This document shows, in pieces, positions 1 through 13,295 of a DNA stretch of 13,295 nt. Source of the DNA: a virus; UHGV virus genome UHGV-0220852. One strand, given 5' to 3'. A model generated the notes under the pieces. The model had not been told where the DNA came from. It searched no databases and worked only from the letters and a program-made list of their open reading frames with translations. How positions within the stretch are numbered: position 1 is the stretch's first letter; each line of letters starts with the position of its first letter. Both the position numbers and the translations under genes were made by a program.

Positions 1-875
1 AGGCTGCCGGGGAGATATTCCCCAGACGAGAGTGACGACGCTGACGATTGTAGAAAATCTCAATGTATTCCCGTATTACTGAGATGGCTTCATCCCGGTT
101 ATTAAAACGATAGTGGCTCAGGCTCTCATTTTTCAGCGTTCCCCAGAAGCTTTCCATCGGAGCGTTGTCGTAACAGTTACCTTTACGCGACATTGATGTT
201 TTCAGACCAAACTGCTCCTGTATGACCCGGTAATCGTATGCGCAGTACTGTGAACCTCGATCAGAGTGGTGGATTAGCCCGGCAGGTGGGCGCTGGCTCC
301 TGAGCGCCATAAACAGGGCTTTACCTGTCAGCTCTTTTGTCATGCGCTCTCCCATGGCGTAGCCGACAATTTCGCACGTATAAACATCTTTGATGCCAGC
401 GAGGTACAACCATCCCTCCTGTGTGGCAACATACGTCAGGTCCGCCACCCAGACCTGATTTGGTGCTGTAGGAGCGAACGTCTGGTTCAGCAGATTTGGC
501 GCAACTGGCAGATTGTGGTTCGAGTTCGTAGTCGCTCTGAACTTGCGTTTCTGCTTACAGCGTAGCCTTAGCTCCTTACGAAGACGTGCCAGTCGGTCAC
601 GACCAACGATGATGCCATTCTCTGCCAGCTCCGTCTGGAGCCGCCGGGTTCCATATGTTTCGCGAGTGCGGATATGTGCCACCTTAATCTCCAGTTTTAG
701 CCGCTCATCACTTTGTTTTCTGTCTGAGGGTTCATGCTGTACCCAGTTGTAATAACCGCTCCTGGATACACCAAATACCTGACACATCGCTTCAATGGGA
801 AATTGTTGTCGCCATTGTTCGATTAACGCGTATTTTTCAGCGACTCCTGTGCAAAATACGCTGTTGCTTTTTTTA
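1..875 (-). CDS. IS3-family transposase OrfB (DDE catalytic subunit), truncated by window edge; normally expressed as OrfAB fusion
   Basis: Minus-strand frame open from ~875 to position 1 with recognisable DDE-transposase sequence (translated by hand); absent from the ORF table because it has no in-window start or stop. Confidence 0.75.
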
Positions 876-1125
876 ATATATCTCGCTCAAGGCGAGCTTC
901 ATTTAACGCCTTACGCAGTTGCAGAATTTCAGATTCCAGTTCAGCCACCGTGCGGGAACCAGGAGTACCGAGCCCTTTTCTGGCGGCGGTAACCCATTGT
1001 CCTAAAGTGCCTTCAGGAAGGGATAATCGGGAAGCGCCTTCACTGATCGAAAGTTGATTTTCAAGAACCGTTCTGACAGCTTCGGCTTTGAACTCTTTAG
1101 AGTAACGTTGGGTTTTTCTGCTCAT
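823..1125 (-). CDS. IS3-family transposase OrfA (DNA-binding subunit)
   Basis: 100-aa ORF MSRKTQRYSKEFKAEAVR...ILKKATAYFAQESLKNTR, recognised from memory as IS3/IS600-type OrfA; its 3' end contains the frameshift motif. Confidence 0.85.
   Translation of the reverse strand: MSRKTQRYSKEFKAEAVRTVLENQLSISEGASRLSLPEGTLGQWVTAARKGLGTPGSRTVAELESEILQLRKALNEARLERDILKKATAYFAQESLKNTR
868..875 (-). promoter_or_regulatory. Programmed -1 ribosomal frameshift slippery site (A AAA AAG) for OrfAB
   Basis: T7 run at 869-875 on the + strand gives AAAAAAAG on the coding strand, just before the orfA stop; classic IS3-family arrangement. Confidence 0.6.
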
Positions 1126-1330
1126 TATTAGCTCCTTCTGATGCCATTCTATTTCAGGAAGGAGTGTCCGTTAAACTCAGGCTACCTCAACTGCCAAGAA
1201 CAGGAAGATCGCCGGAGAGCTGCGGACATCTGTATGTTTTGCCATTCGTACAGGAAATTTTGATTATGCTGCGCAGTTCCCTGACTCTCCTAACCTCAAG
1301 GCTTTTGGGGTAAATAAAAAAGAAATTACG

Positions 1331-2395
1331 GTGAAAGAACTTGAAGAAAAATGGCTGGATCTGAAACGAATGGAAATCTCTGCAAATGCATTCAATCGCT
1401 ATGAATCCATTGCAAGGATGATGGTTCCGAAGATTGGTGGCAACCGACTGGTATCAGCAGTGACCAAAGAGGAATTGCTGTATATCAGGAAAGATTTGCT
1501 GACCGGATACCAAAATCCAACAAAAGGTAAAGCTCCAGTAAAAGGACGAAGCGTTGTCACAGTAAATTATTACATGACAACAATCGCTGGAATGTTTCAG
1601 TTTGCTGCAGATCACGGTTACATAGAAGCAAATCCCTTCGAGGGAATTAAGCCTCTTAAAAGAGCCAGGGCAGAACCAGATCCGCTAACTCGTGACGAAT
1701 TTATTCGCCTGATAGATGCTTGCCGGCATCAGCAGACAAAAAACCTGTGGTCATTGGCTGTGTACACAGGAATGCGTCATGGTGAACTGGTCTCCCTGGC
1801 CTGGGAAGATATCGATCTGAAAGCAGGAACAATTACTATCAGGCGCAATTATACGAAACTCGGTGAGTTCACTCTACCTAAAACTGAAGCAAGTACAAAC
1901 AGGGTTGTGCATCTTATCCAGCCCGCTATCAGTGTCCTGAAAAATCAGGCTGAAATGACAAGACTGGGTAAGCAGCACAACATCAAGGTTCAACTACGTG
2001 AATATGGACGTTCAGTAAATCATGAATGTACTTTCGTATTTAACCCCCAGGTGGTTAGAAAAAGCAAACAGGTAGGTTTTATCTACAAGGTAGATTCCAT
2101 TGGCGACTCATGGGAAACAGCCATTAAACGTGCAGGCATCAGGCATCGAAAGGCATACCAGTCACGACACACTTATGCGTGCTGGTCATTATCTGCCGGA
2201 GCAAATCCAAGCTTCATTGCCAGCCAGATGGGGCATGCAAGTGCCCAGATGGTGTTCAATGTATACGGAGCATGGATGACTGACAGCAATGCAGAACAGA
2301 TCGCAATGCTGAATCAGAAGCTGGCAGATTATGTCCCAATGATGTCCCATGGTCACCAAAGTGACACAAGAGACTTATTAAAATCAGTGAGTTAG
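1331..2395 (+). CDS. int: Phage-type tyrosine integrase (site-specific recombinase); probably N-terminally truncated by the IS insertion
   Basis: 354-aa ORF with catalytic-domain motifs (YTGMRHGEL, ...SRHTYACW..., MGHASAQMVFNVYGAW with the tyrosine nucleophile). GTG start; the same frame is open upstream to 1175, reaching the inferred IS terminus, and no N-terminal arm-binding region is recognisable. Confidence 0.8.
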   Translation: MKELEEKWLDLKRMEISANAFNRYESIARMMVPKIGGNRLVSAVTKEELLYIRKDLLTGYQNPTKGKAPVKGRSVVTVNYYMTTIAGMFQFAADHGYIEANPFEGIKPLKRARAEPDPLTRDEFIRLIDACRHQQTKNLWSLAVYTGMRHGELVSLAWEDIDLKAGTITIRRNYTKLGEFTLPKTEASTNRVVHLIQPAISVLKNQAEMTRLGKQHNIKVQLREYGRSVNHECTFVFNPQVVRKSKQVGFIYKVDSIGDSWETAIKRAGIRHRKAYQSRHTYACWSLSAGANPSFIASQMGHASAQMVFNVYGAWMTDSNAEQIAMLNQKLADYVPMMSHGHQSDTRDLLKSVS

Positions 2396-2421
2396 CTTTT
2401 AATACCCGTCATGTTAACTGC

Positions 2422-2823
2422 GTGGAGGGCAACACCACGCTTTACGCCCTGCCGAAACCCGAGGTTGTCCTGCGCTGGCGTGAACAGACCACAGATGACT
2501 TCCGCTTCTGTTTTAAGTTTCCGGCGACCATTTCGCATCAGGCAGCATTACGACATTGCGATGATTTAGTGACTGAATTTTTGACCCGCATGTCACCGTT
2601 GGCTCCGCGCATTGGGCAATACTGGCTGCAACTGCCTGCCACATTCGGCCCACGGGAGCTGCCTGCGCTTTGGCATTTTCTCGATTCTCTCCCTGGCGAA
2701 TTTAATTATGGTGTGGAAGTCCGCCATCCACAGTTTTTCGCCAAAGGGGAAGAGGAACAAACGCTTAATCGCGGTTTACATCAGCGCGGCGTTAATCGGG
2801 TGATTTTTATTAGACACGTTTAA
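2422..2823 (+). pseudogene. yecE: Internal fragment of a DUF72 (YecE-like) gene, apparently cut at both ends by insertions
   Basis: 133-aa ORF VEGNTTLYALPKPEVVLRWREQTTDDFRFCFKFPATISH...YWLQLPATFGP...VEVRHPQFF fits the DUF72/YecE pattern but covers only about the middle of a ~270-aa protein; it ends abruptly (...NRVIFIRHV*) 50 bp before the serine recombinase gene and starts 27 bp after the integrase stop. Confidence 0.6.
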
Positions 2824-2875: not shown

Positions 2876-4399
2876 ATGAAACGTGTCATTTCATACATTC
2901 GTTTCTCATCAGAGAAGCAAGCTAAAGGCGACTCACTCCGCAGACAATCTAAGATGGTCACTGATTGGCTTAAGGCTCATCCTGAGTACTACCTTGACCA
3001 AGATTTATCCTTCCGTGATTTGGGGGTGAGTGGGTTCACTGGTAAGCACTTGAAAGGTGGCTTAGGTGACTTCTTAACCGCTATCGAGAAAGGGCTTGTT
3101 AAAGCTGGTGATACATTATTAATCGAGAGTTTAGACCGTTTGTCACGTCAGGCCGTAGACCGAGCAAGTGAGCTATTACGAAACATTCTTCGCTCTGGTG
3201 TAGATGTAGTCACCCTGTCCGATGGTGAACATTACACAAGTGAGTCTCTTAAAGACCCGTTAGCTCTGATTAAAAGCATTTTGATAATGCAGCGGTCGCA
3301 TGAAGAGAGTTTGAGGAAGTCTGAGCGTATACAAGCTGCATGGGATGCAAAGAAAGAAGCTGCTAAAGCTGGTATCAAGATTTCTAAGCGTTGTCCTGCA
3401 TGGCTTAAGCTTAATGATGACCGTAAGACCTTCTCTGTGATACCTGATAAAGTGGAGACTGTGAAGAGGTGCTTTCAGCTACGGTTAGAGGGTAAGTCTA
3501 TCTGGGAGATTGTCAGAACTCTTAATGCTGAAGGTCACCGGTCGATGAACCAATACAAGCCGGGTAAGTTTGGTCAAACATCTGTTCAAGACCTTTTGAA
3601 GAATCGCTCTGTAATTGGATACTTTACCCCGAAAGGCTGTGAAGAGATTGCAGGTTATTACCCGTCTGTAATTGATGAGACAACATTCTACAAAGTCCAG
3701 CAACTATCACATTCTCGTCACGGTCGAAAACCTGTTTCAGATAAACCATTGAGTGTGAATCTCTTTAAAGGGGTTATCCGTTGTTCTGAATGTGGTCATG
3801 CTTTGATTATCACAGGCTTTAGCGATACAAGAAACGGGATTTATCGTTGTCCTCTTCGTAATGAAAACCGTTGTAGTGCTAAAGGGCTGTCACGTAAGCA
3901 AACCGATGGTACATTGCTTACCCTGCTATCTCGTCTTGACCGATTTGATAGCGATATGACGAATACCATAGACACACTGAAGCTACACCGTGAACACATC
4001 TCAAGCAATATTGAGAAGCTGGTACAGCTATCACTTGAAATTGAAGACCTGAACGCTATTACCAACAAGCTAAAACAACTAAAGAATGAGTTATCACAGG
4101 TTGATGCTGATATCGAGAAGGAGACACAGCGGCTTAAGTCTATCGATACAGGCTCTTTGTCCGATTGTGACTTGAGTACAAAGGCGGGAAGGATTGAAGC
4201 ACAACTGATAATCAAAAGTGCTGTTAAAGAGGTCGTTTTAAATACTGCTAAACGTCGCTGTAAAGTGACTTTTCACAACGGTAAGTCAATCACCTTACCA
4301 ATAACAGAAAACCCCTCAGAGGACGTTACAGAGGCTATACAGTCGCTTTCTGAAGTCACTGAGAGGGGTTTAATAGACGTTGATGTAGTAGAGATTTAG
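2876..4399 (+). CDS. Large serine recombinase (phage/ICE-type integrase)
   Basis: 507-aa ORF: N-terminal resolvase-type catalytic domain (YIRFSSEKQ with serine nucleophile, ...[12 protein letters not shown]...), recombinase domain, Cys-rich zinc ribbon (CSECGH...YRCP...C) and C-terminal coiled coil; strong RBS. Confidence 0.9.
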
Positions 4400-5169
4400 T
4401 ATCTTTTGTTAGGATTCACACTAAACTTCTTCAAAGTACTACCTGTACCAGCATTATTAAGCACCTTTGAAGCTTGCTCATTAGCGGCATCTGAGAAGGT
4501 GCTTTTTCCATTCTTAATTTTGACACTTCTACCACAATTGATACGGGCTTGAAGTTGCTCATTAGTGAGTTCACTCGTAGAGCGATTATATAGCTCCTGA
4601 CACATCAACATACCGTTACCTAAACTTGTTGTGGTGTTTCCAGTATTCTTTTTAGAAGTTGCTCCACCATCATTCGTGGTAGCGGTCTTGCCAGTAGCAG
4701 ATGAAATATCAGTTTGCCCTACGATTGAACGAAATTCTACACCTTGGAAGGTCATCTGAATACGAAGACCATTAGCAATGGTATGCTCTTTACTCGCTTT
4801 AAACTGAGTAATGATACTATCAGTGATAGATATTCCATCTTTACAAACAATAGTGATGATTTGCTTCTGGTCTCGCCATTGTTCAACCGTAGAAATAAAG
4901 GTTTCTACAAGTTGCCCCTGTCTGGTTAATAGAACTGAACCCGTCGAATCAACCACTACAACACCGCTAATAGAGATGGTCTTAGGTGCTCTCTGAACAT
5001 TATCAGTTATAGTTTGCCCCGATTGCATAGCCTGAGTTGTCACCATCATCGGTGAGTCATAGTCCATCTGTTCAGTAGCTGTTAAGGCAAGAAAAGATTC
5101 TACATTATCTCTAAGGTGAAAATAGATACCATCTTTACCTGAGTATCTAATTTGCTTTGTGTCAAACAT
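4396..5169 (-). CDS. Hypothetical protein (257 aa); possibly tail-associated (sits immediately downstream of the tape-measure-like gene)
   Basis: Long ORF converging on the recombinase gene with a 4-bp stop overlap; Thr/Ser/Gly-rich mid-section; no motif I can name. Confidence 0.55.
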
Positions 5170-5253
5170 TGTTGTTATTCCTATTCTGTTAAGCGTGAGC
5201 TACGTGAAATCTAATTTTTGATGTTGGTATCTGTTCAGAAGAAATCACGTAGC

Positions 5254-5317
5254 ATTCGACTATTCATAGTTGAATCGTCATACTAGATAAAGATTAATAG
5301 ATTGCCATGTGTGGCAA
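5254..5317. promoter_or_regulatory. Two palindromic operator-like sites in the 174-bp gap upstream of the 257-aa gene
   Basis: ATTCGACTAT-tc-ATAGTTGAAT (5254-5275, 10-2-10 with one mismatch) and TTGCCA-tgtg-TGGCAA (5302-5317, perfect 6-4-6). Confidence 0.3.
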
Positions 5318-5342
5318 TAAATATTAGTAGTTCTAACATTGT

Positions 5343-7418
5343 TTATTCCTCTGGGTAAGCTGAGCTAATCAAGGTATCTTCCTGCATACGATTAATATGA
5401 GATGTGGTTCTTTCATCAATAACCTTTCCATCAAGTACCGTCTGAGTTGTGATATTGATTGTCTGAGGCTGAATGTTTACTGACGGCTTGATAACCTTTA
5501 AATCTTGTGTGAATGTTTCCACTCGACCTTTCAGATTATTTAATGCTTCAGGTGAAAACTGTGGAACATCCTTTGATTTGCCCTGAACCATAGCCCATAA
5601 AACAGCAGCTAAAGAGTTCATGTCACCAGTCAATGCTTGGTCTGTGGGTTCCACCTTTGACCTTACAACTTTGTCAATTGGATTATCTGACTTACTCATC
5701 TGACGTTCATAGAACGGTTTAACAATGGAGTTAATCACATCAGTTGCCATACCGACAATCATTACTTTGGTAATTGCATCAGCTACAGATAATTTTCCTT
5801 TACCACCTTCAATACTACCGGAACGTGAATTAATTCTTCCTGCTGCTGTATTTGCTACATTTCCAAGCGTGGAAATAGCCCTAATTAAGCTCCAGATGCC
5901 ACCTACAGCACCAATACCAGACCTTACAGCAACAATACCAGCAAGTCCCTTTAATGCACTTAACAGGCCATTTGCGATACCATCAGCTACAGCTTTTTGA
6001 GTGTCATTTAATTCTCTGTAAGCAAGGGTCACTCTGTCAAAGAATCCCTGCACTCGGTAGCTAATCGTGGTTAAATCATCAATACCGTTTGACATACTTT
6101 TCATCAAGTCGCCAAAATGTTCACCAAGATTTTTTGATTGCCCACCTAGCGAATTAAGTAAATTAGTCAGTGACCTTGTAAAGTCTGTTAAACCTTCCTG
6201 TGAACCGTCGAACATTAAGGCCAGATTATTATTCCATGAATTAGAAAGGCGGCCTAACTGCGTCTGAGTAGAGTTAATAATCTTTTCCCATCCACCAGCT
6301 TTATCAATCATCCTTCCCATTTCAGCGGATACTTTAGGAAGAACATCTTTAGAAAGAACTTTACCGTCTTTCATAGCCTTGTCTAATTCTTCTGTAGTCA
6401 TCCCAAGGCTTCTGGCAAATAACTGGAAAGCACCTGCCATTCTGTCACCTAATTGACCACGTAGCTCTTCAGCCTGAATCTTCCCTTTAGAAGCCATCTG
6501 CTCGAAAGCTTTCAGAATCCCGTTAATTTCATCAGTACTTAAACCCATTAATCTGGATGTGCCAATCACATTAGAAAATAGGGATTCTTTCTGGTCTGTA
6601 TTCATATCACCAGCACCAGCGGAAAACTTAGCAAAACTGCTTAATGTTTCAATCTGGTCTACACCTGTATTATTAGCAAGATTCTTAACGAAGTCTGTAG
6701 CTCGTTTAGCGCCTTCATCGCCTAATACAAATTGTGCCGCTCGTTGTGATGCTTCTTTTTTCAGGCCAATCTCCATAACCTTCTTGTAAGCTTCTAAGGC
6801 TGTCTGAAAACTATAAATGGCTGTACCTGCTTTGATTGCACTTGTAGCTAATACATCCAGACCATTCGAGGCATATTCACTGTGATTATTTTTGCTGGTG
6901 GTCTTATTAAACTTAGAAAGTGTTTCACGTAGATTTTGATTTAATTTTGCTAACTCACGATTAAAAGCTTCGTTTCCAAGTGTCTTGGATTTGCTGCTTA
7001 AGCTGTAATACTGACTCTTAAAATACTTCTCAAGCATAGGATTAAAGTCACGAAGCTTGCTCATATCCACGCTATGTGCTGCTGTGATTGCTCTGTTGCC
7101 GCTAATTCGTGGCTGTCTTGGCTGTCTAAGTGGCTTTAAAGTATCCTCAATTTCCGTTTTAATCTTAAACGCTCTAGTGTTTTTAAGACGCTGCTCAATC
7201 TTGTCAAAGGTCTTATTAAACTTCCTTTCAAGTTGCCCTAAAGAACTTGTCAGATTGCTGTCAAGTTGCTTGGTATCGACCTTAAACGCTCTATTCAAAT
7301 TACGTTCAATTCTTTGTGCTGACTGCAAAGCTGCCTTTTCAACTCTTTGCAAGCCCTTAATAACGTTTTCATTGAAGCCTAGCTCAACGATAAAACTATC
7401 AACTGTGAATTTGCTCAT
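5343..7418 (-). CDS. Tape-measure-like protein (phage tail length tape measure / minor tail family)
   Basis: 691-aa ORF: coiled-coil-like N-terminus, central segment ...GLSTDEINGILKAFEQMASKGKIQAEELRGQLGDRMAGAFQLFARSLGMTTEELDKAMKDGKVLSKDVLPKV... resembling the conserved TMP core, and Gly-rich hydrophobic stretches near the C-terminus. Assignment is by motif memory, not a search. Confidence 0.6.
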   Translation of the reverse strand: MSKFTVDSFIVELGFNENVIKGLQRVEKAALQSAQRIERNLNRAFKVDTKQLDSNLTSSLGQLERKFNKTFDKIEQRLKNTRAFKIKTEIEDTLKPLRQPRQPRISGNRAITAAHSVDMSKLRDFNPMLEKYFKSQYYSLSSKSKTLGNEAFNRELAKLNQNLRETLSKFNKTTSKNNHSEYASNGLDVLATSAIKAGTAIYSFQTALEAYKKVMEIGLKKEASQRAAQFVLGDEGAKRATDFVKNLANNTGVDQIETLSSFAKFSAGAGDMNTDQKESLFSNVIGTSRLMGLSTDEINGILKAFEQMASKGKIQAEELRGQLGDRMAGAFQLFARSLGMTTEELDKAMKDGKVLSKDVLPKVSAEMGRMIDKAGGWEKIINSTQTQLGRLSNSWNNNLALMFDGSQEGLTDFTRSLTNLLNSLGGQSKNLGEHFGDLMKSMSNGIDDLTTISYRVQGFFDRVTLAYRELNDTQKAVADGIANGLLSALKGLAGIVAVRSGIGAVGGIWSLIRAISTLGNVANTAAGRINSRSGSIEGGKGKLSVADAITKVMIVGMATDVINSIVKPFYERQMSKSDNPIDKVVRSKVEPTDQALTGDMNSLAAVLWAMVQGKSKDVPQFSPEALNNLKGRVETFTQDLKVIKPSVNIQPQTINITTQTVLDGKVIDERTTSHINRMQEDTLISSAYPEE

Positions 7419-7520
7419 TGTTCATGTTTCACCTCTTTAAGTGTTCATATACAAAAAAGGGAGAGCTACCGATGTCACTCGATAATCTCTCCCGTTGATT
7501 TTTACCCAACCAATTCTTTT

Positions 7521-7739
7521 TTAATGTCTGACAAGATAATATAATTCCGTTTCACCTATGATTTGGGCATCAGAAGGGATACGGTCGATACACCACTTTG
7601 GAATCTTGCGTGTTTTTGGTTTGTGTGAGGTGATAACTTGACGTTGATTTCCAATTCGTAGCTTTGGTTTGTTGGGTTGTTCTTTCAATCGTTCACTAAT
7701 TGCTTTAATAAGCTCATAGCGTTCTGTTAAATCAATCAT
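7521..7739 (-). CDS. Hypothetical basic protein (72 aa)
   Basis: ORF with AGGTG RBS 4 nt upstream; Lys/Arg-rich; same operon as the TMP-like gene. Confidence 0.5.
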   Translation of the reverse strand: MIDLTERYELIKAISERLKEQPNKPKLRIGNQRQVITSHKPKTRKIPKWCIDRIPSDAQIIGETELYYLVRH

Positions 7740-7762
7740 TCACCACCTCACATTAGTTTCAA

Positions 7763-8179
7763 TTAGAAGTCCAGCAATTCCTCTATTAAGTAGCCTTTTC
7801 CAGCTAAATCCCGATACCGCTTATCTAATTCTGCCTGATAAGAATCGAGATTTTTTAGATAGTCATCTTTAAATTCAGCAAGTAACTCTTCATTAGTTTT
7901 ACTGGTAAAGTCCCTGATGTAACTCCCACCAATCGCTACGCTAATAGTTCTTGTTCCATCATCAAAGTCTATCATTTCAGTAATTTCTGGTGGATTATAA
8001 CTATCTCTTAATCGCTCAATATCCCGATTAACATCCCTAATCAGGAAAGTTAAGTCATCTCGACCATCAAATTTTAAATCTTCCAGAGACTCACCTTCGT
8101 AAATACGTTCACGAAGATATCCGGTAATCTCATCGATAGCATCAAACTTCTTTCTAAGAATATAAAAAATAGGACTCAT
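7763..8179 (-). CDS. Hypothetical acidic protein (138 aa)
   Basis: ORF with GAGGTG RBS that overlaps the stop of the upstream 236-aa gene; Asp/Glu-rich. Confidence 0.55.
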   Translation of the reverse strand: MSPIFYILRKKFDAIDEITGYLRERIYEGESLEDLKFDGRDDLTFLIRDVNRDIERLRDSYNPPEITEMIDFDDGTRTISVAIGGSYIRDFTSKTNEELLAEFKDDYLKNLDSYQAELDKRYRDLAGKGYLIEELLDF

Positions 8180-8187
8180 TCATCACC

Positions 8188-8898
8188 TCAAAGTGCTTTG
8201 CTATATTTCTGAGAAATCTTCGTAAGCTGCTCAATATCAGCCTGCATAGCAACCTTCTTAGCATCTTCATATTCTTTCACAAGCTCTTTCATAGCCTGAA
8301 GCTCTCTTGAGAGATACAACTTAGCACTATCAAGCTGCTTGTTACGTGATGCCAAGATGTTCTGTTTAGCAAGTTCACAGAGTTCTTCATCGCTCTTATT
8401 GGTCATGTAAATAAACTGACCAGCACCTCTTGATGCCTTAACCATCTTCACAATTCGATATCCAGCAGGAAGACTACTAATCACGGCTGCGACGTTTTCT
8501 TGAAAAGTACCAAAACCATCATTATCTTCGTATTGGTAATAGACAAATGGTTTCTGTGACAATTCATCCTGAATCTCAAATTCTGATGGCTCAATAGCTG
8601 ATTGCATCAGGGTAACTTTACTGTAAGCATCATCTAGTTTAATACGCTGTGCTTTTAGCAGTGGGTAATATTCACGCTCAAGATTAAATAGTGCTTCAGT
8701 TTTACCAATATCGGGCATCTCTTGAGACTCAGGCGTCACAAAGATGATTTCCTTTGGTGACATCTTTAACTCTTGCTCAAGTGCAATTCTTTCATCGTGT
8801 TCTTTGCGCTGGATAGTGATAGCTGGATGTTCAGTCTGTGGCGACCAGTCACCGAAACTATCAATCACTTTGTTATTAATGTAAATATCGTTTGTCAT
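8188..8898 (-). CDS. Hypothetical protein (236 aa), first gene after the long leader
   Basis: ORF with AAGGGGA RBS; C-terminal region looks coiled-coil; no recognisable motif. Confidence 0.6.
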   Translation of the reverse strand: MTNDIYINNKVIDSFGDWSPQTEHPAITIQRKEHDERIALEQELKMSPKEIIFVTPESQEMPDIGKTEALFNLEREYYPLLKAQRIKLDDAYSKVTLMQSAIEPSEFEIQDELSQKPFVYYQYEDNDGFGTFQENVAAVISSLPAGYRIVKMVKASRGAGQFIYMTNKSDEELCELAKQNILASRNKQLDSAKLYLSRELQAMKELVKEYEDAKKVAMQADIEQLTKISQKYSKAL

Positions 8899-9008
8899 TG
8901 TTTTCCCCTTCTAAGATATTCAGTTTTTAAAAAGCACACCTGACAGCCTACGAACTTAGAAGAGGCTTAAAAGGCGGTTTGCCAAGTATGCTTTTTAAAA
9001 GCTGAAAA

Positions 9009-9040
9009 AGCCCTAGATAACTAAAACGCTATAAAGGGCT
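9009..9040 (-). terminator. Candidate intrinsic terminator/attenuator hairpin inside the leader
   Basis: AGCCCT (9009-9014) pairs with AGGGCT (9035-9040) around a 20-nt loop; on the minus strand the hairpin is followed by TTTTTCAGCTTTT. The long loop makes it weak. Confidence 0.3.
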
Positions 9041-9228
9041 AAGGTGAAGAAATTAAAAAAAATATCTAAAGGATTCAATAACGAATGATTAAGCACTTTT
9101 CGAGATGACCTCTCAGGTTGTATAAGAGGCCATGTAGCGAAAAGCATTGCACCTTTCAGAATAACTATCCCTAGATGTAGATGGAATTGTTGAAAGAAAT
9201 AAGAGAGAATTACTCTCCCATAATTAAA

Positions 9229-9257
9229 ATTATGTCATGCTTAAGGTTATTTGTCAA
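9229..9257 (-). promoter_or_regulatory. Sigma70-type promoter reading leftward (TTGACA-17-CATAAT)
   Basis: Consensus -35 (9257-9252) and CATAAT -10 (9234-9229) with 17-bp spacer on the minus strand, ~320 nt upstream of the 236-aa gene start. Confidence 0.5.
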
Positions 9258-9281
9258 CAGCTTTTTAACAGATTGGTAACA

Positions 9282-9359
9282 TCAATTCTTATTTACTGTG
9301 TTACCCATCCAGCAACCAACAAATAGCCCTAAAGCCGTCCAGAGAATAACGAGCATCAT
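9282..9359 (-). CDS. Candidate 25-aa hydrophobic peptide (MMLVILWTALGLFVGCWMGNTVNKN)
   Basis: Start overlaps the stop of the upstream 102-aa gene (ATGA), suggesting translational coupling; too small for the ORF track. Unproven. Confidence 0.3.
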   Translation of the reverse strand: MMLVILWTALGLFVGCWMGNTVNKN

Positions 9360-9664
9360 TGCATCACCTCACTGTAAGGGTTTAATTCATTCTGATAGGT
9401 CAAGAATACATTCAGCTTCAATAATTGCTCCGGGCTTAAATCAAGTCGGTTGCATTCGCTTGTGATAAATCTCTTGTAGTCTGGGTCTGTTACTTCCAGT
9501 TTGTGAACAAAGTCACCAAGTTTAATTTCGTTGATTATATGCTTGTCAATATACGTTGATGCTTCAAAACAATGCATGAAATAGATATTAAAGCCTGACC
9601 TGTTCAGGTCATTAAGCCAATTCATAGTTTCTTGGTCAACCATAACTTGCATTGAATAATTCAT
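9356..9664 (-). CDS. Hypothetical protein (102 aa)
   Basis: The ORF table extends it to 9697 from a TTG; the ATG at 9664 has an AAGGAG RBS 9 nt upstream and avoids overlap with the structured element, so the shorter form is preferred. Confidence 0.6.
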   Translation of the reverse strand: MNYSMQVMVDQETMNWLNDLNRSGFNIYFMHCFEASTYIDKHIINEIKLGDFVHKLEVTDPDYKRFITSECNRLDLSPEQLLKLNVFLTYQNELNPYSEVMQ

Positions 9665-9684
9665 TTTTAAAATCTCCTTTTTAC

Positions 9685-9806
9685 CAGACCTCCTCAATCG
9701 CTCTGTAACGAGCCAAACAGTCTTTTTCAGGGGTAGCCTGTACAGTGGTATTACCCACCCTAAAATAAGGTAGTTTTTTGCGTTAGAATGCGATTGAGAG
9801 CGTCTG
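9685..9806 (+). repeat. Structured repeat element, copy A (candidate ncRNA/regulatory element)
   Basis: Shares conserved 5' and 3' blocks with copy B; CTCAATCGC (9693-9701) pairs with GCGATTGAG (9790-9798), plus outer CAGAC/GTCTG; G-U wobble implies the + strand folds. Confidence 0.5.
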
Positions 9807-9819
9807 AGAAGCTGTTTTT

Positions 9820-10107
9820 CTAATTTCTCTTAAAGCCTCGGACTTGCATAAGATTTTTTGGTCTGGTATCGGCTCTGTTACCATTTCGATGGATAATTTG
9901 CTTGTTGGATTGATAGCCATGATAAAGAAACCAGACAACATATTTCACGTAGAAAGTATATCGGCCTATATTAAATGTTTTGTTGCCGTAGTCGTCGGTA
10001 ATTATCGTGACTGACTCTCCATCAGACCAGTACAGGGAATCACTGGATTCATCATAGATAAGGTGTTCTGTAAAATATCGTCTAACATCTTCATGCCAAG
10101 GTTTCAT
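9820..10107 (-). CDS. Small HNH endonuclease (HNH_3-like)
   Basis: 95-aa ORF ...YTFYVKYVVWFLYHGYQSNKQIIHRNGNRADTRPKNL... fits the small HNH family; GAGGAGG RBS; start overlaps upstream stop (ATGA). Confidence 0.65.
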   Translation of the reverse strand: MKPWHEDVRRYFTEHLIYDESSDSLYWSDGESVTIITDDYGNKTFNIGRYTFYVKYVVWFLYHGYQSNKQIIHRNGNRADTRPKNLMQVRGFKRN

Positions 10108-10319
10108 AAAACCTCCTCACCCCAATAACCTAATTCAATCTTGTGACGCTCAAACCATTCTGGCCTGACTGCTGTTTTCAGTACTTCATTTGGGCCAATG
10201 GCTTTAATGAAAATATCTTTTGAGTTATGGATGTCACCGAATCCGTTTCCTTTAATCAGGAGGTCGGAGATGTAGCGAATCATTTTATCCGTGTGGTATT
10301 CAAAGGTAACGCATAGCAT
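10104..10319 (-). CDS. Hypothetical protein (71 aa)
   Basis: ORF coupled to both neighbours (TAATG overlap upstream, ATGA overlap downstream). Confidence 0.5.
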   Translation of the reverse strand: MLCVTFEYHTDKMIRYISDLLIKGNGFGDIHNSKDIFIKAIGPNEVLKTAVRPEWFERHKIELGYWGEEVL

Positions 10320-10597
10320 TAAACCCCCATTGCTAACTTGTGAATCTTAATACTCAATAGTCGGGCGATATCAATTTTAAAGTTGTTTAGTCCCTTCAAA
10401 GTATCTAAAGCGTCCTGAGTAATTCGGATGTGTTTACGACCTTTAGAAACTGGATATTTAAGTAAATCCGACTCAGTGACCTCTTTAGCAATTGCAAGCT
10501 GCATAACAGTCTGATGAGGCAAGTTAGTAGCTCGTTTAATTCTGGTAAGCTCGTTAAAAGCTTCCTCTGAAATACGGGTTAATGTGTGTTTATTCAT
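10319..10597 (-). CDS. Putative ribbon-helix-helix (CopG/Arc-like) DNA-binding protein (92 aa)
   Basis: Start moved from 10699 to the ATG at 10597 (GAGGA RBS; TAAAATG junction with upstream gene). N-terminus HTLTRISEEAFNELTRIKRATNLPHQTVMQLAIAK has the strand-helix-turn-helix pattern of RHH repressors; a second RHH-like stretch (KHIRITQDALDTLKGL...IDIARLL) may follow. Confidence 0.5.
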   Translation of the reverse strand: MNKHTLTRISEEAFNELTRIKRATNLPHQTVMQLAIAKEVTESDLLKYPVSKGRKHIRITQDALDTLKGLNNFKIDIARLLSIKIHKLAMGV

Positions 10598-10598
10598 T

Positions 10599-11030
10599 TT
10601 AAAATTCCTCCAAAATATACGGGTCAAACTCAAAGTCTGGTTGCTCGTTTTCCATTGGCTCAATATTACCAACGGCCATATGATGCTCAACAACACCAAT
10701 TAACTTTGCGCACATTACAGCAAGCAAAGCGCAATATTTATCGCTTGGTAATTCATGGCTAAGTCTGGTTGCTTGACGCTGAAGATGATTTGTCACGTTG
10801 GCTGCGTTAATTTCATCAAGATTCTTTAGAATATAAAATAGCTTTCTGTTGTATTTTGGGTGACCTTCACTTCTACAGAATCCGATAATTACTTCGTCAA
10901 TGCCTTTGCGTTCTGCTCTGGTGAACTTGGGTACTTCGTGGCTGGTGGGGGTGTCTGTGTAAGCGTAGGAGTTGTATCTGTTACGTTGTCTCGATGCCTG
11001 AAGCATCGCTCTAAATTCTCTGTCGTTCAT
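10599..11030 (-). CDS. Hypothetical protein (143 aa), first gene of the leftward coupled operon
   Basis: ORF directly downstream of the leftward promoter; acidic C-terminus; no recognisable motif. Confidence 0.6.
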   Translation of the reverse strand: MNDREFRAMLQASRQRNRYNSYAYTDTPTSHEVPKFTRAERKGIDEVIIGFCRSEGHPKYNRKLFYILKNLDEINAANVTNHLQRQATRLSHELPSDKYCALLAVMCAKLIGVVEHHMAVGNIEPMENEQPDFEFDPYILEEF

Positions 11031-11079
11031 TCATAAGCCAGTCCTTATAATTGTTAATTCTCTGTTAACCATATATACA

Positions 11080-11108
11080 ATACTAGCATTTTCAAAGACT
11101 AATGTCAA
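11080..11108 (-). promoter_or_regulatory. Sigma70-type promoter reading leftward (TTGACA-17-TAGTAT)
   Basis: -35 at 11108-11103 and -10 at 11085-11080 on the minus strand, ~50 nt upstream of the 143-aa gene. Confidence 0.5.
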
Positions 11109-11114
11109 GTATTT

Positions 11115-11144
11115 TTAACATTTTATTAACATCTATGGTATAAT
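11115..11144 (+). promoter_or_regulatory. Sigma70-type promoter reading rightward with extended -10 (TTAACA-18-TGgTATAAT)
   Basis: -35 at 11115-11120, TG at 11136-11137, TATAAT at 11139-11144; sits back-to-back with the leftward promoter, -35 elements 6 bp apart. Confidence 0.55.
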
Positions 11145-11214
11145 GGTTCTATGAGAGAGGGAAAAATAGAAAAGGCGTGGCTATGAGAATGGTCACATGG
11201 TATTGCATTGCACA

Positions 11215-11313
11215 CAGACCTCTTCAATCGCCCTGTAACGAGTTAAATGGCCTCTTCAGGTCAACTCATAAGGTCAGATACTTTTTGTGTCAGGATGCGA
11301 TTGAGAGCGTCTT
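11215..11313 (+). repeat. Structured repeat element, copy B, in the 5' leader of the rightward transcript
   Basis: Same conserved ends as copy A; TTCAATCGC (11223-11231) pairs with GCGATTGAG (11297-11305), including a T-G wobble; begins ~65 nt after the predicted start site and ends 13 nt before the start codon of the small ORF. Confidence 0.5.
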
Positions 11314-11326
11314 ACAAGGAAATTTA

Positions 11327-11515
11327 ATGGTAAATCTCCCTCCTGAACTGGGGTCACCTGATGTATGGGCTGGTGGAGGTGTTGGGCTGATTGCAGGCTT
11401 ACTACTTCGCTATTTCATCGTCAGGGTGTTTATCGTGTTTCGGTTGTTTGGTCGTGAATGGTCGTTTGACCTCAAGGACAGGACCAGAACAGACAACCAC
11501 ACAGAACCCCGTTAA
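11327..11515 (+). CDS. Candidate small single-pass membrane protein (62 aa)
   Basis: ATG with AAGGA RBS 6 nt upstream; MVNLPPELGSPDVWAGGGVGLIAGLLLRYFIVRVFIVFRLFGREWSFDLKDRTRTDNHTEPR has one hydrophobic helix and a charged tail. The ORF table's 112-aa version starts inside element B and is probably over-extended. Confidence 0.45.
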   Translation: MVNLPPELGSPDVWAGGGVGLIAGLLLRYFIVRVFIVFRLFGREWSFDLKDRTRTDNHTEPR

Positions 11516-11629
11516 ACTCCCTTCAAAACCCCCTGTACGTGATGGTATAGGGGTATCTTTAGCATTTTGTGCTATCTATTAAAAAATAGCTTGACAGAAC
11601 CGGAAAGCTGTATCTATCAAGCATTCACC

Positions 11630-11806
11630 TCTCTGACAGTAACCTCTAAAAGTTCTTATTTTTCAATAAATTGTAATTAGCCATATATAGAGAACTGACA
11701 AGTCTCTTCACAATTAACTCTGTAACCTTAACAGTGATTTCTAAAAATACTTATTTTTCAATAAGTTGTAATTAGCCAATATAAAGGACTGACAAGACCC
11801 TCCACA
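11630..11806. repeat. Tandem direct repeat, two copies, ~95-bp period
   Basis: Copy 1 ~11630-11711 and copy 2 ~11725-11806 share a near-identical core CTTATTTTTCAATAA[A/G]TTGTAATTAGCCA and ACTGACAAG; no ORF. Confidence 0.7.
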
Positions 11807-11835
11807 GAGAACTTCCTGGACTCACTAAGATACAA

Positions 11836-11861
11836 GGCGATAACCCCAGAAAGGGAGAGCC
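11836..11861. repeat. Two-tier GC hairpin, copy 1 of a hairpin repeat (copy 2 at 12049-12082); possible terminator
   Basis: GGC-gataa-CCC-cagaaa-GGG-aga-GCC; shares the core TAACCCCAGA[A/C]AGGG with copy 2, while the outer stem differs in sequence but still pairs. Confidence 0.3.
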
Positions 11862-12048
11862 ACCTTCTAATTGGTATTGTTATGAGGATGCTTCATCCGA
11901 ATCATCTACCAATCCCTAAACCGACTTCTTAAACAATCTTTACAGACCCCGTTCACCAGTCTCAATATTTTATTTCTCGCTCTTCGTTTGTTGCTCGTTT
12001 CTATTATTGAGGGGGTTTGAAAAACCTCTGTAAAATAACCCTTCCAGT

Positions 12049-12082
12049 AAAAAGCGAATAACCCCAGACAGGGGAAATCGCC
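12049..12082 (-). terminator. Candidate intrinsic terminator downstream of the methyltransferase gene
   Basis: On the minus strand: GCGA/TCGC outer stem, CCCC/GGGG inner stem, then TTTTT (A5 at 12049-12053 on +); lies 40 nt after the methyltransferase stop. Confidence 0.45.
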
Positions 12083-12121
12083 TCTTTAACATTCTCATAA
12101 TCAGTACTCTATATGAGAATC

Positions 12122-12790
12122 TTAGCCCAACCTTTGAACAATCCTGTAAGTGGTGCTTAGAGGCATTCTTAGCGATTCTGCGATGCTCTTGATGGATTGC
12201 CCTTGGTCATACATTTTAATCAACCTGTCAAGCGTCTGTGCATCGTGTATATGAGGTCTTCCACGTAAACCACCCCTGTTAACCACGGCAAGTAAAAGCA
12301 TTGTGTCACCACAATAGATTGTCTGGGTAACTTCAACTTTCGGTTTGCGGGGTGTGTTCCTGTATATCAAAACGCAACTTGGAAACGGTGAACGCGCTGC
12401 AACACCTTTCTTCCCTGCTGGTGGAAGGTATTTGACTGCTCGGTGTAACGTTCGAATCTCATGCAGAAAGGGGTTTGTATATACACATCGAAGCCAGTAA
12501 GTTGTCTTTGACCTGTGCGGAACCAGACATACACACACATCAGCTTCAGGGGCTTTTGAGAGGAACCGTTCAGCCATGCTAAACGGCGGGTTACAGAAGA
12601 CCCGTTCACCAACCCATGATTGACGGCTTATATCATCGGTGAACCGTGGCAACAATGCGTCATGCTCAGTTGCAGCACCATCCATTGAGAAACTAAATTC
12701 TCGGTGTAGGTTACGAAATAAACGATACGGTGTACGCCAGTCATCAGAACCACCATGATAACGACCGACATTGATTATTGGATGTGACAC
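12122..12790 (-). CDS. Phage-type DNA N6-adenine methyltransferase (Dam family) with C-terminal resolvase-type HTH extension
   Basis: 222-aa ORF (GTG start): ...SDDWRTPYRLF...MDGAATEHDA...WVGERVFCNPPFS...VCLVPHRSKTTYW... matches the small phage Dam family; the last ~50 residues GRPHIHDAQTLDRLIKMYDQGQSIKSIAESLRMPLSTTYRIV resemble the HTH of Hin/resolvase-type recombinases. Confidence 0.8.
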   Translation of the reverse strand: MSHPIINVGRYHGGSDDWRTPYRLFRNLHREFSFSMDGAATEHDALLPRFTDDISRQSWVGERVFCNPPFSMAERFLSKAPEADVCVCLVPHRSKTTYWLRCVYTNPFLHEIRTLHRAVKYLPPAGKKGVAARSPFPSCVLIYRNTPRKPKVEVTQTIYCGDTMLLLAVVNRGGLRGRPHIHDAQTLDRLIKMYDQGQSIKSIAESLRMPLSTTYRIVQRLG

Positions 12791-13295
12791 AAGCGAAGCG
12801 CCCTCTTAGTATATTTCTTAATCATCTCTTTAGCATTTAGTGCTTTTTGTTAAGTTTAGCACTTTTTGCTAAAGACAAAACACTTGACAAAATGGTAAGA
12901 TTGTTCACATAGCCCTTACTTAACAGACTTTTAAGAGACTTTGAAACGACCTACTTAACAAGGTCACTACCTCTGGTCTTATCACTCCCTCTTGGTAGTT
13001 CTGTTAATAATTTTTCAGTTCTCTCTTAAGACAACTGTTAAGACAGAACCTACCTTCGGTTTTCATGGTTCTCTTCCCCCGTTAAACAGTCCTTCCTAGC
13101 AACTTCATAGTTATCTGTCAAGTGCCTTTGAAGATTCTATCAAGACCTCTGAAGCTGACCTGATATAGATGCTGTGAAGGCATATTCTCTAGGTCTGTGT
13201 AGCTTACTTAGTGGGAAGAGAGGGATATAGTGACCATAGGGGAACCCCTCCTGTTAAAAAGACTACTTAGAAGTCTGAGACTTTAGTAAAATCTG

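What the first reader, a model, noticed from the sequence alone, without database searches (positions are those of the whole stretch)
12122..12790. Dam-family adenine methyltransferase carrying a resolvase-type HTH domain at its C-terminus
The first ~165 residues match the small phage Dam family (NPPF catalytic motif), but the ORF continues in frame for ~55 more residues whose pattern resembles the DNA-binding HTH that ends Hin/Gin invertases and Tn3-type resolvases. A sequence-specific tether on an otherwise orphan methyltransferase could direct methylation to particular sites (epigenetic switching or anti-restriction at defined loci), or the tail could be the relic of a recombination event with a serine recombinase gene.
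Basis: partly seen in the sequence, partly recalled or inferred. Interest (0 to 1): 0.55.

Follow-up and report, generated by a model that had tools for sequence, protein, structure and literature searches.

The report
Adenine methyltransferase fused to Hin-like DNA-binding domain
The gene is real and encodes a small phage-type DNA adenine methyltransferase permanently joined to a Hin/resolvase-type DNA-binding domain; it is an optional gene of an undescribed mobile island that mimics Felix O1-like phages and, like them, has no GATC sites, so the enzyme is very unlikely to work as an ordinary GATC 'Dam'.

Summary
Observation confirmed. ORF 12122-12790 (minus strand, 222 aa) scores above Pfam's cut-offs for Dam (PF05869, residues 15-145) and HTH_7 (PF02796, residues 177-217). 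A confident AlphaFold model shows an N6-adenine methyltransferase core plus a three-helix domain that matches the Sin resolvase DNA-binding domain. The tail aligns without gaps to Hin at the GRP arm and at S-T-x-Y-R of the recognition helix.

The fusion is not an artefact or relic. It is full length in 211 of 213 E. coli carriers, both domains have dN/dS of about 0.2, and it persists in Pantoea and Erwinia at about 44% identity. It is rare: about 6 of 2,964 Dam-family cluster representatives.

The gene is a dispensable cassette (window 11816-12870) in the non-coding arm of an ~11-kb island carrying a large serine recombinase and tail genes. The island shares TGTTAAG arrays, a 51-nt identical segment, about 39% G+C and total absence of GATC (0 observed, 42 expected) with Felix O1-like phages. 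A GATC-specific role on island or phage DNA is therefore excluded.

Best reading (confidence about 0.45): the HTH anchors a minimal methyltransferase at specific non-GATC sites. The binding site and methylation motif remain unidentified. This is a new variant of a known kind.

The parts
12122..12790 (-). Dam-HTH coding sequence (222 aa plus stop; GTG start)
   Evidence: annotated as one CDS in E. coli genomes
12275..12748 (-). N6-adenine methyltransferase core, residues 15-172 (Rossmann-like fold plus C-terminal beta-hairpin 155-172)
   Evidence: Pfam PF05869 and PHROG 111; AF2 model with pLDDT 85.6; Foldseek hits to PCIF1 and type I/II N6A methyltransferases
12671..12691 (-). F34-x-x-D37-x-A39-A40, the presumed AdoMet-binding motif (invariant in the fused clade)
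   Evidence: invariant columns in alignments A2-A4; the AdoMet-binding role is inferred
12581..12592 (-). catalytic motif IV, N67-P68-P69-F70
   Evidence: N-P-P invariant and F/Y at the fourth position down to 43% identity
12125..12274 (-). appended DNA-binding module, residues 173-222: G-G-L-R-G-R-P arm plus three-helix HTH (helices 184-195, 200-207, 211-221)
   Evidence: Pfam HTH_7; AF2; Foldseek 2r0q_D Sin resolvase-DNA, prob 1.0; in-register alignments to Sin and gamma-delta resolvase and Hin
12254..12262 (-). G177-R178-P179, in register with the Hin G139-R140-P141 minor-groove arm
   Evidence: G177 invariant, R178 and P179 nearly invariant
12128..12160 (-). recognition helix L211-STTYRIVQR-L221 (S212, T213, Y215, R216 equal Hin S174, T175, Y177, R178)
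11816..12870 (.). limits of the Dam-HTH cassette: present in the window, L001 and L012; replaced by 318 bp in Dam-less island L011; L010 lacks window 11883-12870 and has 246 bp in its place
12827..12875 (.). inverted pair of 18-nt sites TCTTTAGCAWWWWGTGCT flanking a TGTTAAG (12848-12854), 37-85 nt upstream of the start codon; operator-like, clade-specific
   Evidence: (3 copies against 0.01 expected); absent upstream of the divergent allele in L012
11556..11573 (+). third copy of the 18-nt site; also present in Dam-less islands
12087..12124 (.). palindrome TAACATTCTCATA-N12-TATGAGAATCTTA overlapping the stop codon (hairpin or possible binding site)
   Evidence: conserved in L001 and L012, only one arm in L013
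11868..11918 (+). 51-nt element 100% identical to Felixounavirus phages NBEco004/005; a second direct copy lies at the island's right end (L001 16477-16528)
12871..13295 (.). start of the island's ~1.7-kb non-coding arm. T[GA]T[TGC]AAG heptamers occur at 17.8 per kb over 12791-13295 and share modules with the Felixounavirus non-coding region

Best explanation
The ORF encodes one functional two-domain protein. The first domain is a minimal PF05869-type N6-adenine DNA methyltransferase core. The second is a covalently attached Hin/resolvase-type DNA-binding module made of a minor-groove 'GRP' arm and a helix-turn-helix. I propose that the HTH supplies the sequence-specific DNA anchoring that the small catalytic core lacks, so that adenines at or next to the HTH's sites are methylated (a tether or surrogate target-recognition domain). 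Those sites are not GATC. The gene is the first gene reading out of the regulatory non-coding arm of a mobile island carrying a large serine recombinase. That island copies sequence features of Felix O1-like virulent phages. The likely substrates are therefore defined sites on island and/or phage DNA, where m6A would alter protein binding (transcription, replication or packaging factors) or block a nuclease. Shown here: the architecture, conservation, selection, cassette nature, island context and GATC absence. Inferred: catalytic activity, site-specific binding, the targets and the biological pay-off.
For: Both domains pass Pfam cut-offs. The AF2 model is confident (pLDDT 85.6, pTM 0.78); its core matches N6A methyltransferases and its tail matches the Sin resolvase DNA-binding domain. 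The tail aligns without gaps to Hin at G-R-P, G159, A166 and S-T-x-Y-R (9 of 46 identities; 64 of 20,000 shuffles reach this), and in register with Sin and gamma-delta resolvase. NPP[FY] and F-x-x-D-x-A-A are invariant in fused homologues down to 43% identity. dN/dS is 0.17-0.24 for the core and 0.22-0.23 for the tail at dS 1.0-1.7. The recognition helix is conserved within E. coli but differs between lineages (STTYR, STVGR, SSVGR, ATIYRW), as expected for sequence-specific binders with lineage-specific targets. GATC is absent from the island (0 against 42 expected; also 0/46, 0/46, 0/46 and 2/55 in four other islands) and from Felixounavirus DNA (0 against 161 expected in 50 kb) (PMC5477317, PMC4690856), so the canonical Dam target is unavailable in cis. 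The fusion is rare in the family: about 6 full-length representatives of 2,964. Longer relatives carry other domains and no HTH.
Against: No DNA site could be tied to the HTH. The inverted 18-nt pair upstream is missing in the divergent E. coli clade, whose helix is almost the same, and a copy exists in Dam-less islands. TGTTAAG-type motifs are only weakly enriched beside the non-E. coli homologues. The gene is dispensable for the island. Specificity of the catalytic core is unknown and could be intrinsic. Coordinates of the model were not available, so the geometry between the HTH and the active site was not examined.
Confidence: 0.45

Rival explanations
1. The HTH is a transcription-factor module, as in the autoregulating methyltransferases M.SsoII and M.EcoRII. 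It represses or activates the gene's own promoter or the island's promoters, while the methyltransferase core works independently with its own intrinsic (non-GATC) specificity, for example to protect island DNA from restriction in new hosts.
For: An inverted pair of 18-nt sites sits 37-85 nt upstream of the start codon. This sequence is absent from Dam-less islands at the same position. The gene is promoter-proximal in the island's long leftward gene series. PADLOC sees only an 'orphan methyltransferase'. The precedent of HTH-bearing autoregulating methyltransferases is from my own knowledge.
Against: The divergent E. coli clade keeps an almost identical recognition helix but has the Dam-less-type upstream sequence without the inverted pair. 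A third copy of the site occurs in islands that lack the gene. No sigma-70-like promoter was detected over the pair.
Confidence: 0.27
2. The tail is a non-specific DNA-affinity or processivity module (compare the C-terminal domain of CcrM). It raises activity of a weakly binding minimal methyltransferase without directing it to particular sites.
For: No consistent target site was found across lineages. Flanking repeats differ from locus to locus.
Against: The residues that coincide with Hin are the arm and the recognition helix. From my own recollection of the Hin-hixL structure, not checked here, these are Hin's base-contacting residues. The recognition helix is conserved within a lineage and variable between lineages. 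The HTH_7 family is typically sequence-specific (my own knowledge).
Confidence: 0.13
3. It is an ordinary GATC-specific phage Dam (as I recall being reported for the T1, HP1 and VT2-Sa Dam enzymes), and the tail is incidental.
For: Membership of Pfam PF05869. That characterised members of this family methylate GATC is from memory and was not checked here.
Against: The island that carries it, every related E. coli island examined, and Felix O1-like phages contain essentially no GATC (PMC5477317, PMC4690856). From general knowledge, E. coli has its own Dam, which would already methylate the chromosome. The protein fails the NCBIfam equivalog cut-off. The tail is under purifying selection.
Confidence: 0.07
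4. It is a relic, a fusion artefact, or a catalytically dead methyltransferase. The ORF would be a decaying chimera left by recombination with a serine recombinase gene, or it acts only as a DNA-binding regulator.
For: Occasional frameshifted or truncated copies exist (L002 and the fragments). The gene is dispensable.
Against: It is full length in 211 of 213 E. coli records. dN/dS is about 0.2 in both domains. Catalytic and cofactor motifs are invariant at 43% identity. It is conserved in Pantoea and Erwinia. No recombinase catalytic domain or close donor was found.
Confidence: 0.05

Closest known systems
Small phage Dam methyltransferases (Pfam PF05869; phage T1, HP1 and VT2-Sa Dam type)
   Same: Same catalytic core family (PF05869 at 49.8 bits) with the W-x-T-P, F-x-x-D-x-A-A and NPP[FY] motifs; about 160-170 residues; orphan enzymes of mobile elements.
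   Different: Carries an extra 50-residue HTH_7 module, found in only about 6 of 2,964 family representatives. Fails the TIGR01712 equivalog cut-off. Encoded in GATC-free DNA, so GATC specificity is implausible.
DNA-binding domains of small serine recombinases (Hin, Gin, gamma-delta/Tn3 resolvase, Sin; Pfam HTH_7)
   Same: GRP arm plus three-helix HTH, with the same G-to-G spacing as Hin and S-T-x-Y-R in the recognition helix. Structural match to Sin bound to DNA.
   Different: No resolvase catalytic domain (PF00239) and no serine nucleophile. The module is attached to a methyltransferase instead. Only about 20-30% identity to any recombinase tail.
Methyltransferases with built-in HTH regulators (M.SsoII, M.EcoRII, M.MspI type) and CcrM with its C-terminal DNA-binding domain (from my own knowledge)
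   Same: One polypeptide combines a DNA methyltransferase with an extra DNA-binding segment that either regulates transcription or is needed for substrate binding.
   Different: Those are C5 or beta-class enzymes belonging to restriction-modification systems or cell-cycle control, with N-terminal HTHs or non-HTH domains. Here a PF05869 core carries a C-terminal recombinase-type HTH, in a phage-related island.
PLE-type phage satellites of virulent phages (Vibrio cholerae PLE and phage ICP1)
   Same: The surrounding island is a small chromosomal element with a large serine recombinase, a long repeat-rich non-coding region and sequence mimicry of a virulent phage.
   Different: No sequence homology was tested or seen. 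The island carries tail genes (tape measure, Dit-like). Excision, replication and packaging on phage infection are untested.

Membership tests
Pfam PF05869 phage Dam (N6-adenine DNA methyltransferase) | Profile match above the curated gathering score | tested here: met
   49.8 bits against 28.1, residues 15-145; PHROG 111 E 2e-25
Pfam PF05869 phage Dam (N6-adenine DNA methyltransferase) | Catalytic motif IV (D/N)PP(Y/F) and the cofactor-binding acidic/small-residue motif | tested here: met
   N67-P68-P69-F70 and F34/D37/A39/A40 are present and invariant in the fused clade
NCBIfam TIGR01712 'phage N-6-adenine-methyltransferase' (equivalog) | Score above the equivalog cut-off (97.05 bits) | tested here: not met
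   38.2 bits, with only residues 15-82 aligned: a divergent subfamily, not an equivalog
GATC-specific Dam function | GATC substrate sites available on the element's own DNA or its partner's DNA | tested here: not met
   0 GATC in 10.4 kb of island (42 expected). Counts of 0, 0, 0 and 2 in four other islands, and 0 in 50 kb of phage REP5
GATC-specific Dam function | Actual methylation specificity | not testable with these tools
   needs methylome sequencing or in-vitro assays
Pfam PF02796 HTH_7 (resolvase-type HTH) | Profile match above the gathering score, and a three-helix fold preceded by a minor-groove arm | tested here: met
   26.0 and 29.1 bits against 23.8; helices 184-195, 200-207 and 211-221; Foldseek 2r0q_D prob 1.0; GRP and STxYR in register with Hin
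Serine recombinase (resolvase/invertase) | N-terminal catalytic domain PF00239 with the nucleophilic serine | tested here: not met
   no PF00239 match in the protein at E up to 10; the N-terminus is a methyltransferase
Restriction-modification system | Cognate restriction endonuclease encoded next to the methyltransferase | tested here: not met
   The neighbours are non-coding DNA and small unassigned ORFs. The only nuclease is a 95-aa HNH_3 protein 2 kb away, which is also present in Dam-less islands. PADLOC reports only 'orphan MTase'
Autoregulating HTH-methyltransferases (M.SsoII-like logic) | Operator for the HTH in the gene's own promoter, co-inherited with the gene | tested here: inconclusive
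   An inverted 18-nt pair is present upstream in the window and L001 but absent upstream of the divergent allele in L012. A copy occurs in Dam-less islands
Phage satellite (context of the gene) | Integrase, small size, helper-derived sequences | tested here: met
   Large serine recombinase; about 11 kb; three attachment sites. Dit-like gene about 75% nt identical and tape measure about 30% aa identical to Felix O1-like phages. Shared TGTTAAG arrays, a 51-nt identical segment and GATC absence
Phage satellite (context of the gene) | Helper-dependent excision, replication and packaging | not testable with these tools
   requires infection experiments

The most novel reading that the evidence does not exclude
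The Dam-HTH is a site-directed epigenetic effector in a satellite-phage conflict. Its Hin-like domain would dock on the helically phased TGTTAAG/TATCAAG arrays that the island shares with the non-coding (origin- or packaging-like) region of Felix O1-like phages. The attached methyltransferase would then deposit m6A there, on DNA that is otherwise free of Dam methylation because it lacks GATC. That mark would license island packaging or replication, or block that of the phage. This would be a natural 'DamID-like' enzyme, and conceptually similar to methylation control of the phage P1 pac site.
Probability: 0.12. Interest if true: 0.85.

Novelty: new variant of a known kind. Interest (0 to 1): 0.55.

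Why it matters
Orphan phage methyltransferases are usually read as simple anti-restriction devices with short intrinsic motifs. A conserved natural fusion of a minimal adenine methyltransferase to a recombinase-type, sequence-reading DNA-binding domain suggests a different logic: methylation addressed to particular loci. Its setting sharpens the question. It sits in a GATC-free island that imitates GATC-free virulent phages, so the family name gives no guide to its function. If the tether model holds, it would be a compact natural tool for locus-directed m6A. It would also give a handle on how an apparently undescribed island family, whose non-coding arm matches 486 of 5,426 complete E. coli genomes, interacts with Felix O1-like phages, which are widely used in typing and biocontrol.

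Tried and rejected
(1) Inverted 18-nt pair as the HTH's own operator: rejected as a general rule. The divergent E. coli allele (L012) has nearly the same recognition helix but a Dam-less-type upstream region, and Dam-less islands keep a copy of the site.

(2) TGTTAAG heptamer as the HTH target: not supported outside E. coli, where enrichment is 1-3 per kb against 0.3-0.8 per kb. Within E. coli the arrays exist with or without the gene.

(3) Recent capture of the tail from a serine recombinase: no donor found. A tblastn search of the tail against phages gave only weak Staphylococcus hits. The word-index search returned only fragments of the same gene. A neighbouring small recombinase in L010 is only 30% identical over 43 aa.

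(4) A known RNA in the non-coding arm: Rfam gave nothing credible.

(5) Relationship to the non-specific enzymes Hia5 and Hin1523: the paper describes DPPY and FxGxG enzymes with a separate target-recognition region, and gives no Pfam link. This lead was dropped.

(6) A solved structure of the core by sequence search: none found.

(7) A defence-system role: PADLOC gives only 'orphan MTase'.

(8) HTH fusion as a common theme in PF05869: ten longer relatives carry second methyltransferase domains or unassigned extensions, and none has an HTH.

(9) The first genome scan with a 9-sequence alignment failed for lack of a conserved stretch and was repeated with 5 sequences.

(10) Inter-domain geometry: the model's coordinates are not exposed.

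(11) Helper-phage methyltransferase as the source: the REP5 enzyme is an unrelated D12-class protein.

(12) Literature: no paper in the held library describes this fusion or a satellite of Felix O1-like phages.

Full report
1. THE OBSERVATION

The window has one uninterrupted ORF at 12122-12790 on the minus strand (GTG start, 222 aa). Pfam places PF05869 (Dam) on residues 15-145 (E 4e-13; 49.8 bits against a cut-off of 28.1). It places PF02796 (HTH_7, 'HTH domain of resolvase') on residues 177-217 (26.0 bits in context and 29.1 bits alone, against a cut-off of 23.8). PHROG 111 (DNA methyltransferase) covers residues 15-163, and the tail weakly hits the DNA-invertase PHROG 125. NPPF is at residues 67-70. 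The NCBIfam equivalog for phage N6-adenine methyltransferases is not reached (38 bits against 97). The protein is therefore a divergent member of the family.

2. THE FUSION IS REAL AND SELECTED

- Of the 120 best homologous clusters, 118 are 216-222 aa long, at 67-92% identity. They come almost entirely from E. coli, Shigella and E. albertii.
- 213 of 5,426 complete E. coli genomes carry the gene, and 211 of them cover at least 80% of it.
- The one 'split' annotation seen (L002) is caused by a 2-bp deletion.
- An exhaustive HMMER scan of 1.84 billion cluster representatives found 2,964 Dam-domain representatives. Only about six full-length ones also align over the tail (P0122, P0123, P0125, P0126, P0127, P0131; 43-56% identity).
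- In those six, NPP[FY], the F-x-x-D-x-A-A motif, the G-x-x-G-R/K-P arm and the HTH are all retained.
- Ten longer family members carry second methyltransferase domains or unassigned extensions, and none has an HTH.
- Between the two E. coli allele clades (about 70% identical), dN/dS is 0.17-0.24 for the core and 0.22-0.23 for the tail, at dS 1.0-1.7. The dS values are near saturation, so these ratios are approximate.
- Fused homologues also occur in Candidatus Pantoea borealis, Pantoea piersonii, Erwinia typographi and a MAG.

3. ANATOMY OF THE PROTEIN

AlphaFold2, run on a 29-sequence alignment, gives mean pLDDT 85.6 and pTM 0.78. The model has a Rossmann-like core, a beta-hairpin at 155-172, a short linker, and helices at 184-195, 200-207 and 211-221.

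No solved structure is related to the core by sequence. By fold, the core is closest to the cap-adenosine N6-methyltransferase PCIF1, to type I and type II N6A methyltransferases, and to KsgA. The tail separately hits the Sin resolvase-DNA complex 2r0q (probability 1.0; 27% identity over 59 columns).

The tail aligns in register with the DNA-binding domains of Sin and gamma-delta resolvase. I verified that my remembered Hin 52-mer is exactly chain 1hcr_A. The ungapped alignment to it gives 9 identities of 46, a count reached by 64 of 20,000 shuffles. The identities are G177-R178-P179 = Hin G139-R140-P141, G197 = G159, A204 = A166, and S212, T213, Y215, R216 = S174, T175, Y177, R178. From my own knowledge of the Hin-hixL structure, these are the minor-groove arm and the recognition helix.

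Within E. coli the recognition helix is conserved, and the most variable stretches are residues ~131-160 and 181-200. Between lineages the helix differs: STTYR, STVGR, SSVGR and ATIYRW.

4. WHERE THE GENE SITS

The gene lies in an ~11-kb island that in the window, L001 and L011 interrupts yecE. The gene order is: large serine recombinase (507 aa), Dit-like tail protein, tape-measure protein, small ORFs including an HNH_3 nuclease, Dam-HTH, and about 1.7 kb of DNA with no ORF (33-46 stops per frame).

The same architecture, with different recombinase alleles, sits between wrbA and ymdF (L012; the partial locus L002 also lies next to ymdF) and between tonB and yciI (L013). A Pantoea island next to cmoA/cmoB also has the fused gene, a serine-recombinase domain protein and a 745-aa tape-measure protein. 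Other distant homologues lie in islands with tyrosine integrases, one of which carries a helicase-like and a capsid-like gene.

The gene is optional. Island L011 lacks window 11816-12870 and has 318 bp in its place. L010 lacks window 11883-12870 and has 246 bp there. Homology resumes almost exactly at the start codon. The non-coding arm matches 486 of 5,426 genomes, whereas the gene matches 213.

5. LINK TO FELIX O1-LIKE PHAGES

- The Dit-like gene is about 75% identical in DNA to Mooglevirus and Felix O1-like phages.
- The tape-measure protein aligns end to end, at about 30% identity, with those of Felixounavirus.
- These phages have their own ~1.7-kb unannotated region. It is packed with TGTTAAG, often at 11-bp spacing. 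15 of the 31 copies in 50 kb of phage REP5 lie at 36-38 kb.
- The island arm carries the T[GA]T[TGC]AAG heptamer at 9.5-17.8 per kb, against 0.2-0.3 per kb in the flanking chromosome. It shares 19-56-nt modules with the phage region.
- Window 11868-11918 is 100% identical to phages NBEco004 and NBEco005. It is repeated at the island's right end.
- Island G+C is about 39-40%, like Felix O1 at 39% (PMC3185647).

No paper in the held library describes such an island.

6. THE GATC DESERT

GATC occurs 0 times in the island part of the window, where 42 are expected. It is the most depleted of all 16 palindromic tetramers. The same holds in L001 (0 against 46), the Dam-less L011 (0 against 46), L012 (0 against 46) and L013 (2 against 55). 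Counts return to normal exactly at the island borders.

REP5 has 0 GATC in 50 kb against 161 expected. Published notes state that the genus lacks GATC (MboI) sites (PMC5477317, PMC4690856). The Pantoea and Erwinia loci show no such avoidance.

A GATC-specific enzyme would therefore find no substrate on the island or on its phage relatives. From general knowledge, E. coli has its own Dam, which already methylates chromosomal GATC. So the family name 'Dam' is no guide to function here. The phage's own methyltransferase is an unrelated D12-class protein.

7. SEARCH FOR THE HTH'S TARGET (UNRESOLVED)

An 18-nt site, TCTTTAGCAWWWWGTGCT, occurs three times in the window against 0.01 expected. Two copies form an inverted pair around a TGTTAAG, 37-85 nt upstream of the start codon. 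The third is at 11556.

This is not a strict partner of the gene. The divergent E. coli allele has a nearly identical recognition helix but a Dam-less-type upstream region, and Dam-less islands keep the 11556 copy.

Distant homologues have repeat arrays just 3' of the gene:
- L007: five 24-bp palindromic units.
- L008: two 32-bp palindromes.
- L014: tandem TTAACAGA units.

That is suggestive of co-variation with the helix type, but it is anecdotal. TGTTAA-type enrichment beside the non-E. coli genes is weak. Rfam finds nothing in the arm.

8. INTERPRETATION

Shown here:
- an intact-looking, selected two-domain protein;
- a rare architecture within its family;
- an accessory but ancient gene of a phage-mimicking island;
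- no GATC available in cis.

Inferred: the enzyme is active, the HTH reads specific DNA, and the two cooperate.

I favour a tethered or HTH-specified methyltransferase acting on non-GATC sites of island and/or phage DNA (confidence 0.45). The rivals are:
- an autoregulatory HTH with an independent core (0.27);
- a non-specific DNA clamp (0.13);
- a plain GATC Dam (0.07);
- a relic or a dead enzyme (0.05).

9. NOVELTY AND VERDICT

Methyltransferases with extra DNA-binding segments are known, so this is a new variant of a known kind rather than a new category. The specific combination has not, to my knowledge or in the searched literature, been described or tested. That combination is a PF05869 core plus a recombinase-type HTH, encoded in GATC-free DNA of an apparently undescribed island family tied to Felix O1-like phages. 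Interest is 0.55 for the finding itself. The island context, noted separately, may be the more important lead.

Noticed in passing
window 2876-13295 (continues about 1.2 kb beyond the window; compare L001 5282-16555): An apparently undescribed family of ~11-12-kb islands: large serine recombinase, Dit-like tail protein, tape-measure protein, small ORFs with an HNH nuclease, and a 1.7-2.9-kb non-coding arm. It occupies at least three E. coli sites (yecE, wrbA|ymdF, tonB|yciI), and the arm matches 486 of 5,426 complete genomes. Its tail genes, G+C content, repeats and GATC avoidance all point to Felix O1-like virulent phages, so it is a candidate satellite or parasite of these phages.
   Followed up: partly
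window 2876-13295; L001, L011, L012, L013 islands; L030 (phage REP5 1-50000): Complete absence of GATC from the islands (0 against 42-46 expected; 2 in L013). The desert ends exactly at the island borders. It is shared with Felixounavirus genomes (0 against 161 expected in 50 kb) and is independent of whether the Dam-HTH gene is present.
   Followed up: yes
window 12871-13295 and 11031-12121; L001 14876-16556; L004 2190-3400; L003 1-720: T[GA]T[TGC]AAG heptamers (TGTTAAG type) reach 9.5-17.8 per kb in the island's non-coding arm. The same heptamer forms 11-bp-phased tandem arrays in the ~1.7-kb unannotated region of Felixounavirus genomes, which looks like an iteron, origin or packaging region. 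What binds them is unknown.
   Followed up: partly
window 11868-11918; L001 16477-16528; NBEco004 311-361: A 51-nt element with internal dyad symmetry (TTGGTA...GGATGcttCATCC...TACCAA) is 100% identical between the island and two Felixounavirus genomes. It is present as two direct copies in the island: one 3' of the Dam-HTH gene and one at the right end near the attachment site.
   Followed up: partly
window 11636-11719 and 11731-11813: An ~84-nt module present in two direct copies 94-95 bp apart (77-88% identical) in the gap downstream of the Dam-HTH gene. It is also present in Dam-less islands.
   Followed up: no
window 11116-11515 (+ strand): A good sigma-70-like promoter by eye (TTAACA-17-TATAAT at 11116-11144) faces an opposite-strand ORF. 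Other genomes annotate this ORF as a conserved 62-aa hypothetical protein (WP_000247742.1). By eye it is hydrophobic and may be membrane-associated. A terminator-like hairpin follows at 11530-11553.
   Followed up: no
window 823-2823: To the left of the island lie an IS3-family orfA fragment (823-1125, minus strand) and a tyrosine integrase (1331-2395). They abut a yecE fragment (2422-2823) that, judged against my recollection of the E. coli YecE sequence, seems to lack its first ~30 codons. yecE may therefore be interrupted twice, by a prophage end and by the serine-recombinase island.
   Followed up: no
L007/L015 10776-10897; L008 886-980; L009 11207-11255; L014 10826-10859: In the distant fused homologues, arrays of palindromic or tandem repeats lie 3' of the gene: immediately after it in L007/L015, L008 and L014, and about 540 nt downstream in L009. 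Examples are five 24-bp TGTATTA-N4-TGATACA units in Erwinia typographi. The repeats differ between lineages whose recognition helices differ.
   Followed up: partly
L030 46993-47877 (phage REP5): A GATC-free Felixounavirus genome nevertheless encodes a 294-aa D12-class (Dam-like, DPPY) DNA methyltransferase. Its target must also be something other than the phage's own GATC.
   Followed up: no
E. coli alleles of the gene: The gene is unusually diverse within one species. There are two clades about 70% identical in DNA (dS above 1) with few intermediates. The most variable protein segments are residues ~131-160 and 181-200.
   Followed up: partly
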